This document shows positions 38,274 to 41,044 of a stretch of 64,000 nucleotides of DNA, one piece after another. The notes beneath the pieces are model-generated. The model was given only the letters and a program-made list of their open reading frames with translations. It did no database searches and had not been told where the DNA came from. The translations under genes and the position numbers were made by a program. Numbering within the stretch: the first letter of the stretch is position 1; each line of letters opens with the position of its first letter. This DNA is from Naegleria gruberi (taxonomy: Eukaryota): NCBI GenBank assembly GCA_000004985.1, contig GG738848.1; one strand, written 5' to 3'.

Positions 38274-38280
38274 AACGTGA
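38274..38280 (+). promoter_or_regulatory. AACGTGA motif copy 1, in the shared E1/UEV1 bidirectional upstream region
   Basis: The sequence is gttAACGTGAttt, 18 bp from the E1 ATG on the minus strand and 56 bp before the UEV1 ATG. Confidence 0.5.
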
Positions 38281-38335
38281 TTTCCCAAGTCACTTCACTT
38301 TTCAAACTAAACTAATTGAAAAAAATTGTATTACA

Positions 38336-39064
38336 ATGTCTTCATCACGTTTGAGAAGGATCAAAAACGATCTTACAGAGGTACAACAAAATGCTTCTCT
38401 TCCTCCTTTATTAACATTTACACAGACTGAAAATTCTAGTATCATTCTCTTTAGTTTTAACTTGGACGAAACATCAAGTCTTTATGCAGGTGCCAATTTT
38501 CAGATTGAAGTTTCATTCCCAGAAAATTATCCCCACAAACCTCCTTCTTTCACATTCAAACACACCGTTCCATATCATTTCCTTGTTGATCAAATTAATG
38601 GAAAGGTAATTGGCCTCTCAAAACTTTCGACATGGTCAATGCTATTCACTTTACAATCAATATTTTCTGATCTCTACTCAAAATTTGTAAATGAACCAAG
38701 TCAAGAAGATGCTGAACAATGTGGTGTTAATGAGGATATGATTACAGAATATAGAAACACTCCACAAATCTACAGAGAAAAAGCAAGAAACTCTGTCAGA
38801 AAGTTGCAATTAACTGTAATTGAAAATCCTCTTGATTCAAATGAAATGAAGGATGAAGAATCTACTGAATCGAATGAAACGATTCATGAAGTAGTAGTTG
38901 ATGAAAATAACTTGCAGCCAAGTAATCCAATTTTGGAACAACCACTTGATTCAAGATTTGTTAATTCCAGTAATCACCACAAAATTGTTTCTCATGAAGA
39001 TGAATGGAATTATGAATACGGCTTGTATCATTTAAATATGAGATATGGAAATTACAATCAATAA
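38336..39064 (+). CDS. UBC-fold E2 variant (UEV) lacking catalytic Cys, 242 aa
   Basis: The E2 N-terminal helix is SRLRRIKNDLTEV, followed by FPENYPHKPPSFTFKHTVPYHFLVDQINGKVIGLSKLSTWS. The HPN-x-G-x-I-C-L core is present, but the Cys position is not conserved. The only Cys in the protein lies in the C-terminal tail. Confidence 0.65.
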   Translation: MSSSRLRRIKNDLTEVQQNASLPPLLTFTQTENSSIILFSFNLDETSSLYAGANFQIEVSFPENYPHKPPSFTFKHTVPYHFLVDQINGKVIGLSKLSTWSMLFTLQSIFSDLYSKFVNEPSQEDAEQCGVNEDMITEYRNTPQIYREKARNSVRKLQLTVIENPLDSNEMKDEESTESNETIHEVVVDENNLQPSNPILEQPLDSRFVNSSNHHKIVSHEDEWNYEYGLYHLNMRYGNYNQ

Positions 39065-39114
39065 ATATTTTATTCAGAATATATTGTACATTTGTTTTTG
39101 TAACAGATTATTGC

Positions 39115-39945
39115 TTATTGAAATAACAATCTATTTTCAATTTCGTGCAAATCCTCTTTGGTTTGTGTTGGAGCTACAGGCAATGAACACTTGACATATG
39201 CACCATGAGTTGTTCCAGTTGCTTCTGTACCACTACACTTGAACGGCCATTTACCAGTATTTGTATTGTAAAGAGACAAACAAGCATGACAAAAAACAGC
39301 ATTACATCTTGGACAGTGAGTATGCTTGCACCTGTCTAACTTTCCATCAGATGATGCTTGTCTTTCACAATAATTTCCACAATTAACACATAATCTTGCC
39401 AAAGGAACAACTATTTCTTGATTGGATAGATTAATCTTGGCAGTTACAGAGGATCTAGTTGTCAAGGCAGTGATCAAGGGATCTTCATTAGAACATCCAT
39501 TTCCACAAATTCCTTCACCATTCTTCCATTGATTGCCACAAATGAAACAAAAGTCAAATTTGCAAACATCACAACTCAATCTAACATCGCTGGTGTTTCT
39601 TCTAATGAAGTGATTCTTACACTTATTACAAGTAGTTGCTCTCTTGATCTTGTAATGAATATCATTCAATGCTGAATCAAACTCTTCAATTTTATCATAA
39701 TCGATATTGGCTTGATTGACCCAATTCATTGAAATGGTTTCGCCACAATTAGTTTCATCACTTCCAGTTACATTCTTATTGGAACCATAACAAACCATTG
39801 CTGTTCCTTTCGACAAGTTTTGTAAATTTTCAACAAGACAGTCTTGACAAATATAATGTTGACATTTAAGTTTCAATAATTGTTGAGTGCCAAGACAATA
39901 GAAGCATTTAGACATTTTTTTGACTTGAGAGTTCCCAAATGTCAC
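39115..39945 (-). CDS. RING-between-RING (RBR) E3 ubiquitin ligase, 276 aa
   Basis: RING1 reads CFYCLGTQQLLKLKCQHYICQDC...C..C. The IBR reads CNKCKNHFIRR...CDVCKFDFCFICGNQW. The Rcat reads CVNCGNYCERQASSDGKLDRCKHTHCPRCNAVFCHAC, which matches HHARI [20 protein letters not shown], with the catalytic Cys in DRCKH. Confidence 0.75.
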   Translation of the reverse strand: MTFGNSQVKKMSKCFYCLGTQQLLKLKCQHYICQDCLVENLQNLSKGTAMVCYGSNKNVTGSDETNCGETISMNWVNQANIDYDKIEEFDSALNDIHYKIKRATTCNKCKNHFIRRNTSDVRLSCDVCKFDFCFICGNQWKNGEGICGNGCSNEDPLITALTTRSSVTAKINLSNQEIVVPLARLCVNCGNYCERQASSDGKLDRCKHTHCPRCNAVFCHACLSLYNTNTGKWPFKCSGTEATGTTHGAYVKCSLPVAPTQTKEDLHEIENRLLFQ

Positions 39946-39977
39946 TAGTCAAGCTGCACTTCAAACAGCTTTTTCGA

Positions 39978-39984
39978 AACGTGA
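39978..39984 (+). promoter_or_regulatory. AACGTGA motif copy 2, in the shared RBR/UBL upstream region
   Basis: The sequence is cgaAACGTGAtg. Confidence 0.5.
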
Positions 39985-40001
39985 TGAAACTTATACACTC
40001 A

Positions 40002-40008
40002 AACGTGA
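40002..40008 (+). promoter_or_regulatory. AACGTGA motif copy 3
   Basis: The sequence is caAACGTGAta, about 80 bp upstream of the UBL ATG. Confidence 0.5.
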
Positions 40009-40086
40009 TACACCCCAAAACGCAACACAAGAATTCAATAAATAGATTTTAAATCACAGAATATTAATATCTCAATTCATAAAAAA

Positions 40087-40356
40087 ATGTCCACTCCATT
40101 AAACGTTTCCATTCAACAAGGTGTCCATACTAAAGTACTCTCAATCAGTCAAACTGCAACAGTGAAAGACCTTGCAACCATGTACAAATCCCAAACTGAA
40201 CTTAAAGAATTCTACTTTTTGCATAGAACCACCAGACTTGAAGAAACTACTATTGTTTCTCATATTATTAAACATCCAAACCAAAAGTTAGTAGTTGTTG
40301 GAATTGCTAAAGGTGGTTCTGAAGAAGGAAGAGCATCAATCTTGTCTCTTATTTAA
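40087..40356 (+). CDS. small ubiquitin-like (beta-grasp) protein with internal Gly-Gly followed by a 12-aa C-terminal tail, 89 aa
   Basis: The sequence MSTPLNVSIQQGVHTKVLSISQTATVKDLATMYK...KLVVVGIAKGG|SEEGRASILSLI has the length and hydrophobic periodicity of a ubiquitin fold. It loosely resembles the UFM1 core (KVLSVPESTPF compared with KVLSISQTATV). GG at positions 76-77 followed by a short extension is the arrangement seen in processed UBL precursors. Confidence 0.5.
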   Translation: MSTPLNVSIQQGVHTKVLSISQTATVKDLATMYKSQTELKEFYFLHRTTRLEETTIVSHIIKHPNQKLVVVGIAKGGSEEGRASILSLI

Positions 40357-40513
40357 ACCTAGTTGAGTTTCGTCAAGATATTGAAATAAACTCTCTTTTT
40401 TCAATTAAATCGAAATATTAATCATTTCTGCTGCTTATGAAATCAAGCCGTGTGATCAAACGAGAATCTAATTTTGGTGCCACTGGTGCAAATGATTAAG
40501 TTAGGAAGTCTGA

Positions 40514-40520
40514 AACGTGA
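40514..40520 (+). promoter_or_regulatory. AACGTGA motif copy 4, 17 bp upstream of the UEV2 ATG
   Basis: The sequence is tgaAACGTGAaa. Confidence 0.5.
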
Positions 40521-40536
40521 AAAAAACAATTAAAAA

Positions 40537-41016
40537 ATGTCAAAACAAAGAAGAATTCTGAATGAAGTTGCTGAAGCCAACAAGAACAATCATCCAAAGA
40601 TCAAATTTGAAATTTCCCAAGAGAATTTACATGGTTGGAATTGTTCATTTAAAGGTCCAGATAACACTCCCTATCAAGATTTGCAATTTGAAGGAACTCT
40701 CTGTCTTCCGTAAGTTTAGTTTGGATTAGTTTTGCTAATATTTTGCTTGGTTAGAAATGATTTTCCTTCATCAAGACCAACCTTTGTATTCTCTTCCAAA
40801 ACAATTCCATACCACATCAATGTAGACGATAGTGGTGTAGCTTCTGTCTCTTTGCAATGGACTCCCACACTCACAGGAATAGTTTTTGTCGAAAGTGTAA
40901 TTAACATGTTAGAAACTCCACAACCAACTTGTTCTGTTAGTGATGAAAGATTCAAATTATATCAAAGTAACAAAGATCAATATCAAAAACAAGCCAGCAA
41001 ATTCCTCCAAGAATAA
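40537..41016 (+). CDS. Mms2/Uev1-like E2 variant (UEV) lacking catalytic Cys, 2 exons, 144 aa
   Basis: Exons are 40537..40709 and 40755..41016, with a 45-nt intron GTAAGT...GGTTAG that is phase 2 and keeps frame. The sequence is RRILNEVAEANKNN...WNCSFKGPDNTPYQDLQFEGTLCLPNDFPSSRPTFVFSSKTIPYHINVDDSGVASVSLQWTP. The UBC fold is present with Ala at the active-site Cys position. It resembles Mms2 KINMNGINNSSGMVDARSI. Confidence 0.65.
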
Positions 41017-41022
41017 ACGTGA
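41016..41022 (+). promoter_or_regulatory. AACGTGA motif copy 5 (overlaps the UEV2 stop codon)
   Basis: The sequence is taAACGTGAtc. Confidence 0.45.
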
Positions 41023-41037
41023 TCATTGTAAACTTGA

Positions 41038-41044
41038 AACGTGA
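41038..41044 (+). promoter_or_regulatory. AACGTGA motif copy 6, 18 bp upstream of the USP ATG
   Basis: The sequence is gaAACGTGAga. Confidence 0.5.

What the first reader, a model, noticed from the sequence alone, without database searches (positions are those of the whole stretch)
38274..41044. Repeated AAACGTGA(T) element in every upstream region of the cluster
The heptamer AACGTGA occurs six times on the plus strand within 2.8 kb, at 38274, 39978, 40002, 40514, 41016 and 41038. Each copy lies 17-110 bp upstream of a start codon of the E1/UEV1 pair, the RBR/UBL pair, UEV2 or USP. Five of the six copies extend to AAACGTGA. I found the same heptamer elsewhere in the 64 kb only once in either orientation, inside a coding region (about 18850). 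In an approximately 75% AT background a CG-containing 7-mer recurring six times in 2.8 kb is very unlikely by chance. This argues for a shared cis-regulatory element and co-regulation of the module.
Basis: seen in the sequence. Interest (0 to 1): 0.7.

Follow-up and report, generated by a model that had tools for sequence, protein, structure and literature searches.

The report
Shared promoter motif, Naegleria ubiquitin-like cluster
An eight-base DNA word, AAACGTGA, sits just upstream of all six genes of a private ubiquitin-like protein-tagging gene cluster in the amoeba Naegleria gruberi and almost nowhere else nearby, so it is most likely the docking site of one regulator that switches the whole cluster on together; this is a real but untested candidate control element, not a new kind of biology.

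Summary
The window is Naegleria gruberi nuclear DNA. All six plus-strand AACGTGA copies are at the stated coordinates. Five extend to AAACGTGA, and all lie in the four short spacers (478 nt in total) that precede the E1, UEV1, RBR, UBL, UEV2 and USP genes. The window holds four further copies, not one (22+, 3034+, 18857-, 38345-), and AT content is 69%, not 75%. The enrichment holds: about 0.025 copies are expected in those spacers and 6 are seen (Poisson 3e-13). AACGTGA is the most clustered 7-mer in the window. No other putative promoter in the 64 kb carries it. The flanks of the copies are unrelated, so this is not a duplication relic. In E1, UEV2 and USP the ACGT centre lies 20.5-21.5 nt from the ATG. 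The two bidirectional promoters also share a second element, TTCCCAA(N0-2)GTCAC. A 95%-identical metagenomic contig keeps the AAACGTG cores, but it has little statistical power. Best reading: a regulon-specific transcription-factor site (T/G-box-like, ACGT core) that co-regulates an orphan ubiquitin-like module. Expression, transcription start sites, the factor and genome-wide frequency are all untested. This is a new member of a known kind, of moderate interest.

The parts
38273..38280 (+). Motif copy 1, TAACGTGA(T), in the 79-nt E1<>UEV1 bidirectional spacer. There are 17 nt between it and the E1 ATG (inverted relative to E1), and it starts at -62 from the UEV1 ATG.
   Evidence: identical in L002 and L003
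38345..38352 (-). Reverse-strand AAACGTGA inside UEV1 codons 4-6. It is sense-oriented for E1, at -96..-89 from the E1 ATG. It may be a seventh site or a chance or coding occurrence.
   Evidence: conserved in L002/L003, but it is coding and local divergence is low
39977..39984 (+). Motif copy 2, GAAACGTGAT, in the 171-nt RBR<>UBL bidirectional spacer. It lies 62 nt from the RBR ATG and at -110 from the UBL ATG.
   Evidence: sits in a conserved block TTTTCGAAACGTGATGAAACT in L002
40001..40008 (+). Motif copy 3, CAAACGTGAT, 24 nt downstream of copy 2 and at -86 from the UBL ATG.
   Evidence: in L002 AAACGTG is kept, the 8th base changes (AAACGTGT) and the spacing becomes 26
40513..40520 (+). Motif copy 4, TGAAACGTGA, with 16 nt between it and the UEV2 ATG (40537).
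   Evidence: in register with the USP proximal copy (family D8)
41015..41022 (+). Motif copy 5, TAAACGTGAT. Its first bases overlap the UEV2 stop codon (41014-41016) and an AATAAA poly(A) signal (41012-41017). It starts at -47 from the USP ATG.
   Evidence: N. gruberi uses AAUAAA and dual-use stop codons (PMC11529991)
41037..41044 (+). Motif copy 6, TGAAACGTGA, with 17 nt between it and the USP ATG (41062).
41030..41037 (+). One-mismatch variant AAACTTGA, abutting copy 6. Further one-mismatch variants lie in cluster spacers at 40458-40465 (AAACGAGA, +) and 38295-38302 (AAAAGTGA, -).
   Evidence: That makes 3 variants in 478 nt. About 0.4 are expected from the window-wide rate, which is itself at chance level.
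38282..38293 (+). Second shared element, TTCCCAAGTCAC, 26-37 nt upstream of the E1 ATG.
   Evidence: the pattern TTCCCAA(N0-3)GTCAC occurs only twice in the window, both times here (0.03 expected); identical in L002/L003
39932..39945 (+). Second shared element, TTCCCAAATGTCAC, 17-30 nt upstream of the RBR ATG.
   Evidence: conserved in L002
35652..38256 (-). E1-like gene (ThiF adenylation plus SCCH domains) with short introns. The start is probably at 38256 (MSNLWDRQEYALGQ...), upstream of the public model's start.
38336..39064 (+). UEV1: a UBC-fold protein without the catalytic Cys (Ile at that column) and with a long C-terminal tail. Its stop codon lies inside an AATAAA.
39115..39915 (-). 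RING/IBR (RBR-like) protein of 266 aa.
40087..40356 (+). Putative ubiquitin-like protein of 89 aa, ending ...VVVGIAKGG followed by a 12-aa tail.
   Evidence: weak UBX-like hit, E 0.002. One search gives the strand/helix order beta-beta-alpha-beta-beta-beta, but pLDDT is 46. One search finds no PDB sequence hit. One search shows the GG kept and a 3-aa indel in the tail in L002.
40537..41016 (+). UEV2: a UBC-fold protein with Ser at the catalytic-Cys column. It has one 45-nt intron (40710-40754).
   Evidence: sequence
41062..42414 (+). USP-type deubiquitinase. Exon 1 carries the Cys box (GNTCYLNS), and the gene has at least two short introns.
   Evidence: the public model P0125 omits exon 1 and fuses the rest to UEV2

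Best explanation
AAACGTGA (core AACGTG; consensus [G/C/T][A/T]AACGTGA[T/a/g]) is the DNA binding site of one sequence-specific transcription factor. The site sits in the very compact promoters of a six-gene ubiquitin-like conjugation module of Naegleria gruberi. There are one to two full copies per spacer, plus degenerate copies, and paired copies lie about two helical turns apart. In three genes the proximal copy is about 21 nt from the ATG. The two bidirectional spacers let one set of sites serve two divergent genes each, so occupancy by the factor would switch all six genes together.

The ACGT core and the half-palindrome (reverse complement TCACGTTT) point to a dimeric bHLH- or bZIP-type factor. 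This matches the plant T/G-box AACGTG and the yeast Pho4 site CACGTT.

Shown: the enrichment, the confinement to these promoters, the unrelated flanks, the fixed proximal position, and survival of the cores in a second haplotype. Inferred: protein binding, the class of factor, and co-expression.
For: The organism and gene content are established. Searches give ten copies in the window, seven of them within 2.8 kb. AACGTGA is the top-ranked clustered 7-mer and lies beyond all 40 simulations. Six copies fall in 478 nt of spacer against 0.025 expected. It is the only non-homopolymer 6-8-mer present in all four spacers.

The three copies outside the cluster are not in promoters: two lie in ORF-like sequence and one lies between two convergent 3' ends. 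No other putative promoter in the window has the motif.

The flanks are dissimilar, and there are no long repeats or terminal inverted repeats. The ACGT centre lies 20.5, 20.5 and 21.5 nt from the ATG in E1, UEV2 and USP; simulation gives P = 0.02. In L002 the variable RBR<>UBL spacer differs at 34 of 171 columns, yet both AAACGTG cores are untouched.

The two bidirectional promoters share a second cluster-specific element, which argues for designed, shared promoter architecture. AACGTG and CACGTT are documented bHLH sites (PMC6021540; PMC10437122).
Against: There are no expression data, transcription start sites or binding data for these genes. The genome-wide frequency of the word in N. gruberi promoters is unknown.

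The comparative support is weak. Local synonymous divergence to L002 is only 1-6%, so the 100% identity of the E1<>UEV1 spacer is uninformative. Zero changes in 14 core bases of the other spacer has P of about 0.04-0.4.

All six intergenic copies are on the + strand, the sense strand of four of the genes. An orientation-free DNA site does not predict this, but an RNA element would.

The first bases of copy 41015 are also dictated by the UEV2 stop codon and poly(A) signal. A site 17 nt from the ATG may lie at or beyond the transcription start.
Confidence: 0.7

Rival explanations
1. The word acts in RNA. It is a 5'-UTR element (AAACGUGA) of the four plus-strand mRNAs (UEV1, UBL, UEV2, USP), bound by an RNA-binding protein that controls their translation or stability.
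For: All six intergenic copies are on the + strand, in sense orientation upstream of each + gene; the two-sided strand-bias P is about 0.03. The proximal copies are only 16-17 nt from the ATG of UEV2 and USP, so they could be transcribed.
Against: E1 has its proximal copy at the same distance from the ATG but in inverted orientation. That fits a DNA site with a palindromic ACGT core, not an RNA word. E1 and RBR would otherwise be left without the element. The distal USP copy overlaps the UEV2 stop codon and poly(A) signal, so a USP 5' UTR containing it would have to start inside the UEV2 coding sequence. No significant RNA structure involves the motif (z = -1.67).
Confidence: 0.1
2. The word is a constitutive, cluster-local core-promoter or start-site-positioning element. 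It would act as a substitute for a TATA box or initiator at about -20 from the ATG, rather than as the site of a regulated factor. It would then mark promoters without implying co-ordinated switching.
For: The position is fixed at 20.5-21.5 nt from the ATG in three genes. The spacers are very short (46-180 nt), so any promoter signal must sit there.
Against: A general core element should occur at other promoters, yet none of about 30 others in the window has it. The copies for UEV1, RBR and UBL lie 55-110 nt away, not at -20. Paired copies 22-24 nt apart look like cooperative factor sites.
Confidence: 0.1
3. The copies are relics of duplication of one ancestral promoter, or of a mobile or viral element's promoter, and persist without present function.
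For: UEV1 and UEV2 are paralogues. The E1 and RBR 5' ends share TT(T/A)GACATTTTTTTGA and a second block. The UEV2 and USP proximal promoters align in register over 27 nt at 74% (D8).
Against: Outside the 8-mer and the A-run that precedes most start codons in this genome, the flanks are unrelated. The genes served are not all paralogues. Neutral relics of a CpG-containing word should decay in a genome with CpG observed/expected of about 0.35. There are no viral relatives, the genes carry spliceosomal introns, and the neighbours are ordinary cellular genes.
Confidence: 0.05
4. The clustering of a rare word is chance.
For: The pattern was noticed post hoc among many possible words.
Against: It is the best-clustered 7-mer in the window and exceeds the best of all 7-mers in 40 of 40 simulated windows. 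After Bonferroni correction, P is about 3e-9 for six copies in 478 nt.
Confidence: 0.01

Closest known systems
Plant T/G-box (AACGTG), a G-box variant bound by MYC2-type bHLH factors in jasmonate-induced promoters (PMC6021540)
   Same: The hexamer is identical and present in every copy here. It is a CACGTG-type site with one altered half, found in promoters of genes that are induced together.
   Different: The organism is unrelated. Here the word extends to an 8-9-mer with an A-rich 5' flank and a GA(T) 3' flank, and it lies within 20-110 nt of the ATG. No bHLH factor has been linked to it, and induction has not been shown.
Yeast Pho4 sites CACGTG/CACGTT of the PHO regulon (PMC10437122)
   Same: The reverse complement of the motif, TCACGTTT, contains CACGTT. 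It would work as a regulon-specific site that co-ordinates a functional gene set.
   Different: PHO genes are dispersed and the sites lie hundreds of bp upstream in nucleosomal promoters. No phosphate link exists here.
Vertebrate ISG15 system, in which UBA7, UBE2L6, HERC5, USP18 and ISG15 are all driven by ISRE elements (my own knowledge, not tested here)
   Same: The logic is the same: a complete dedicated ubiquitin-like machinery (E1, E2-like, E3, modifier with a C-terminal extension after GG, USP) whose genes share one promoter element. UBA7 proteins are among the nearest relatives of this E1, at about 27-29% identity.
   Different: The motif sequence is unrelated. The vertebrate genes are not clustered. 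Both E2-fold proteins here lack the catalytic Cys. Inducibility and any immune role are unknown.
Giant-virus early promoter octamers such as mimivirus AAAATTGA (my own knowledge)
   Same: It is an octamer recurring at a short, fairly fixed distance upstream of many ATGs in very short spacers.
   Different: This locus has cellular chromosomal context, spliceosomal introns and no viral homologues. The motif is limited to six genes.
Bidirectional promoters with shared factor sites, a general eukaryotic feature (established knowledge)
   Same: Two of the four spacers (79 and 171 nt) lie between divergent genes and carry the motif once or twice, so one site set can serve both genes.
   Different: Here both partners belong to the same pathway. 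The same word recurs at the neighbouring unidirectional promoters.

Membership tests
E-box/G-box-type bHLH site, T/G-box subclass (AACGTG) | Hexamer AACGTG (reverse complement CACGTT) | tested here: met
   All seven cluster copies contain AACGTG. The hexamer occurs only 15 times on both strands in 64 kb.
E-box/G-box-type bHLH site, T/G-box subclass (AACGTG) | Bound by a bHLH dimer in the organism | not testable with these tools
   No binding data exist. The presence of bHLH genes in N. gruberi could not be checked (literature searches were uninformative).
Palindromic ACGT-core bZIP site (CRE TGACGTCA, plant ACGT elements) | ACGT core | tested here: met
   ACGT is central in every copy.
Palindromic ACGT-core bZIP site (CRE TGACGTCA, plant ACGT elements) | Two-fold symmetric flanks (e.g. 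TGACGTCA, CCACGTGG) | tested here: not met
   The flanks are AA-ACGT-GA, not symmetric. There is no TGACGT in any copy.
General core promoter element of the species | Present at a large share of promoters at a fixed position | tested here: not met
   Zero of about 30 other putative start-codon upstream regions in the window carry it. The other three copies are in ORF-like sequence or in a 3' spacer.
Regulon-specific cis-regulatory element | Significant enrichment upstream of a functionally coherent gene set, independent of flanking homology | tested here: met
Regulon-specific cis-regulatory element | Target genes are co-expressed and mutation of the site alters expression | not testable with these tools
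   No expression data could be reached for NAEGRDRAFT_62733, NAEGRDRAFT_78190 or XP_002682133.
Regulon-specific cis-regulatory element | Conservation of the site in orthologous promoters | tested here: inconclusive
   Only one 95%-identical haplotype covers two of the four spacers. The cores are kept, but neutral divergence is too low for power. No more distant orthologues were found.
Poly(A) signal / 3'-end element | AAUAAA 15-20 nt before the cleavage site, downstream of a stop codon | tested here: not met
   Only copy 41015 overlaps an AATAAA. Three copies lie between divergent start codons, where no 3' end exists.
Giant-virus or mobile-element promoter | Viral or mobile gene context, or terminal repeats | tested here: not met

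The most novel reading that the evidence does not exclude
The motif may be the switch of a self-contained, fast-evolving, lineage-specific ubiquitin-like conjugation system. The parts would be an E1, two Cys-less E2-fold adaptors, an RBR ligase, a GG-plus-tail modifier and a USP. A free-living amoeba would turn the system on as a unit in response to a stress or an infection. That would make it a protist counterpart of the ISRE-driven ISG15 system or of the bacterial Bil-type operons. The central CpG of the site might add methylation gating, because this genome is CpG-depleted and, according to the literature, encodes TET-type enzymes.
Probability: 0.12. Interest if true: 0.75.

Novelty: new member of a known kind. 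Interest (0 to 1): 0.45.

Why it matters
My searches found no described cis-regulatory word in Naegleria. A short, testable word that marks six adjacent genes of one pathway would give a first handle on promoter logic in Heterolobosea. It would also provide a bait for pulling down the factor, and a way to find the rest of the regulon by a simple genome scan.

The motif also strengthens the case that this orphan E1/UEV/RBR/UBL/USP cluster is one functional unit. No close relative was found for the E1 or the USP. The cluster itself is the more unusual object: a eukaryotic, operon-like grouping of a complete private protein-tagging system.

Tried and rejected
**Reaching more of the N. gruberi genome.** Exact-product look-ups for UEV1 and the E1 model found no record, so a genome-wide count was impossible.

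**More comparative sequence.** Protein searches with the USP main exon and with UEV2 exon 2 returned only the N. gruberi model, or nothing. A JGI metagenome scan with the E1 protein found no relative. A scan with the 20-mer AACGTGATTTCCCAAGTCAC returned two contigs (L004, L005) that share nothing else with the window, so they are chance hits. Only L001-L003, from ENA/Logan run ERR1078381, are true relatives.

**Conservation of the E1<>UEV1 spacer.** I first read its 100% identity as strong constraint. I withdrew this after finding that local synonymous divergence is only 1-2%.

**Viral origin.** There is no IMG/VR relative, and only generic ThiF hits in PHROGs.

**Repeat or transposon origin.** There are no long direct or inverted repeats around the copies.

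**RNA hairpin between 38273 and 38345.** It is not significant.

**UBL identity.** The single-sequence AlphaFold model was too poor to use for a fold search. The PDB sequence search found nothing relevant.

**Literature.** Searches for the literal motif, the gene IDs, Naegleria promoter motifs, Naegleria transcription-factor families and N. gruberi expression sets gave nothing usable.

**One-mismatch variants.** They are not enriched window-wide (62 found against 64 expected).
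Full report
**What the window is.** The 590-codon ORF at 35652-37424(-) is 100% identical to 'ubiquitin activating enzyme E1 [Naegleria gruberi]' (XP_002682133, on a 712,659-bp contig). The next best hit in 5.8 billion proteins is only 28% identical. The window is therefore N. gruberi nuclear DNA. It has 31% GC and CpG observed/expected of 0.3-0.5 throughout. Neighbouring genes are ordinary cellular ones: CAP, ERCC4, kinases, G-alpha, spatacsin, a cathepsin-like protease, GH20 hexosaminidase, ribophorin II, PreP, Rad9 and others.

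**The cluster.** Pfam confirms the following genes.
- An E1 with ThiF and SCCH domains.
- A UBC-fold protein at 38336-39064.
- A RING/IBR protein at 39115-39915(-).
- A second UBC-fold protein split by a 45-nt intron (40537-41016).
- A USP/UCH protease beginning at 41062.

Aligned to a canonical E2, both UBC-fold proteins lack the catalytic cysteine: Ile in the first and Ser in the second.

The 89-aa 'UBL' (40087-40356) ends in ...VVVGIAKGG plus a 12-residue tail. It has only a sub-threshold UBX-like hit, no PDB sequence match and a low-confidence model (pLDDT 46). Its identity is plausible but weakly supported.

- The E1 model starts at an internal Met. The ORF runs on to an ATG at 38256, which has the usual A-run context, and the added residues (WDRQEYALGQ...) look like the start of an E1.
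- Model P0125 fuses UEV2 to the USP and skips the exon carrying the USP Cys box, MLERGFENVGNTCYLNS.

**The observation.** The copies at 22 and 18857 are in ORF-like sequence. The copy at 3034 lies between two convergent 3' ends. None of the three is in a promoter.

**Is it more than chance?** Yes.
- Shuffles that keep dinucleotide content, and therefore the CpG depletion, give 3.3 copies per window against 10 observed.
- Seven of the ten fall within 2.8 kb. Among all 7-mers this is the strongest clustering in the window (score 7.28). It exceeds the best 7-mer of each of 40 simulated windows (mean 5.32, maximum 6.67).
- The six + copies lie in the four spacers that precede start codons (478 nt), where 0.025 are expected. 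Poisson P is 3e-13, or 3e-9 after correction for all 7-mers.
- It is the only non-homopolymer 6-8-mer found in all four spacers.
- None of about 30 other putative start-codon upstream regions in the window carries it.

**Anatomy.** The flanks of the copies are unrelated. The spacers do not align with each other beyond short blocks. No long direct or inverted repeat surrounds the copies. The word itself is what recurs, not a duplicated segment. The consensus is [G/C/T][A/T]AACGTGA[T/a/g].

Two spacers are bidirectional: E1<>UEV1 (79 nt, one copy) and RBR<>UBL (171 nt, two copies 24 nt apart). Two are unidirectional: UBL>UEV2 (180 nt, one copy) and UEV2>USP (46 nt, two copies 22 nt apart, plus an abutting AAACTTGA).

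The centre of the ACGT core lies 20.5, 20.5 and 21.5 nt from the A of the ATG in E1, UEV2 and USP. In E1 the word is inverted relative to the gene. A placement simulation gives P = 0.02 for three genes sharing a distance. The remaining distances (43.5, 59.5, 65.5, 82.5, 89.5 and 106.5) scatter around multiples of about 21. I note this but do not lean on it.

Three one-mismatch variants also lie in the spacers. Such variants are at chance level window-wide.

**New observations.**
- The two bidirectional spacers share a second element, TTCCCAA(N0-2)GTCAC. It lies 17-37 nt upstream of the minus-strand genes and occurs nowhere else in the window (2 found, 0.03 expected).
- N. gruberi uses AAUAAA as its poly(A) signal, often overlapping the stop codon, and the median 3' UTR is 39 nt (PMC11529991). 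The stop codons of UEV1 (39062-39064) and UEV2 (41014-41016) both sit inside AATAAA.
- The first bases of copy 41015 are therefore also constrained by the stop codon and poly(A) signal, and only its CGTGAT is free. The UEV2 mRNA probably ends about where the USP promoter copies lie, which shows how tightly packed this locus is.

**Comparative evidence.** A metagenomic contig (ENA ERZ929261 / run ERR1078381; L002) matches window 37709-40398 at 94.9% identity. A Logan contig (L003) matches 37862-39197 at 97%.

The E1<>UEV1 spacer is identical in all three sequences. However, synonymous divergence nearby is only 1-2%, so this identity says little.

The RBR<>UBL spacer is much more diverged, differing at 34 of 171 columns. 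There both AAACGTG cores are untouched. The eighth base of the second copy changes, and the spacing grows from 24 to 26. This is compatible with constraint on the core but not significant alone (P about 0.04-0.4, depending on the neutral rate assumed).

No more distant orthologue of any cluster gene was found.

**Mechanism.** The best-supported reading is a DNA site for a sequence-specific factor that co-ordinates transcription of the six genes. In that reading the bidirectional spacers share their sites between two genes each.

The ACGT core and half-palindrome fit dimeric bHLH or bZIP recognition. AACGTG is the plant T/G-box bound by MYC2-type bHLH proteins (PMC6021540). Its complement CACGTT is a Pho4 site (PMC10437122). 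The site is not a symmetric CRE or G-box. Which Naegleria protein binds it, and under what condition, is unknown.

The main rival is an RNA-level element in the 5' UTRs of the four + strand genes. All six intergenic copies share that strand, which favours the rival. Three points argue against it: the inverted copy sits at the same distance from the E1 ATG, the distal USP copy overlaps the UEV2 stop codon, and no significant RNA structure involves the motif. Chance, duplication relics, a general core-promoter element, a poly(A) signal and a viral promoter are each contradicted by specific tests (see the membership table).

**Novelty and verdict.** Literature searches found no description of this motif, of these genes or of Naegleria promoter words. 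The object is a candidate regulon-specific promoter element, which is a known kind of thing, in an organism where none seems to be described. It is attached to an unusual orphan ubiquitin-like gene cluster. I rate it a new member of a known kind, of moderate interest (0.45), with 0.7 confidence in the transcription-factor-site reading. A genome-wide scan and existing transcriptome data would settle most of the open points quickly.

Noticed in passing
38282-38293 and 39932-39945: A second composite element, TTCCCAA(N0-2)GTCAC, is shared only by the two bidirectional promoters (E1<>UEV1 and RBR<>UBL). It lies 17-37 nt upstream of the minus-strand genes. Two copies were found against 0.03 expected, and both are conserved in the related contig.
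   Followed up: partly
38023-38256(-) and 40537-42414(+): The public N. gruberi gene models look wrong here. The E1 model starts at an internal Met and omits 38 N-terminal codons that resemble an E1 start. Model P0125 fuses UEV2 to the USP and splices out the USP Cys-box exon (41062-41276).
   Followed up: partly
39060-39065 and 41012-41017: The stop codons of UEV1 and UEV2 are embedded in AATAAA. This 'dual-use' stop/poly(A) signal has been described for N. gruberi. The UEV1 and RBR genes converge with only 50 nt between their stops, so their transcripts probably overlap.
   Followed up: partly
38336-39064 and 40537-41016: Both E2-fold proteins lack the catalytic cysteine: Ile in UEV1 and Ser in UEV2 at the UBE2D2 Cys85 column. 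The cluster therefore has an E1, an RBR and a USP, but no obvious thioester-forming E2.
   Followed up: partly
L002 (= window 37709-40398), L003: A 95-97% identical Naegleria haplotype occurs in a public metagenome run (ERR1078381). Divergence is mosaic: pS is 0.01 in UEV1 and 0.06 in RBR. UEV1 shows pN greater than or equal to pS (8 of 10 changes are replacements). The UBL has 9 replacements plus a 3-residue indel in the tail after the conserved GG. Together these suggest fast protein evolution of the module.
   Followed up: partly
whole window: CpG depletion is strong (observed/expected 0.29-0.53 in every 4-kb block), which is consistent with cytosine methylation in this lineage. Every motif copy carries a central CpG.
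   Followed up: no
1-12000: The left end of the window is markedly more AT-rich (24-30% GC against about 32-33% elsewhere). It has ORFs rich in Asn/Ile-type low-complexity runs and no Pfam hits (545-1285, 1542-1853).
   Followed up: no
most start codons in the window (e.g. 3346, 9723-10592(-), 31305, 38256(-), 39915(-), 40087, 41062): An A-run of 5-9 bases immediately precedes most likely start codons (AAAAAAATG), often followed by TC(N) (Met-Ser). This appears to be the general start context of this genome and helps pick true first exons.
   Followed up: partly
3064-3213(-): A small unannotated-looking ORF of about 49 codons (MSNQIQPAVVNKLIPIINARYG...) lies between the FAM183-like flagellar gene (2490-2969) and the IQ-motif gene (3346-5520). 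The stray AAACGTGA at 3033 lies just beyond its stop.
   Followed up: no
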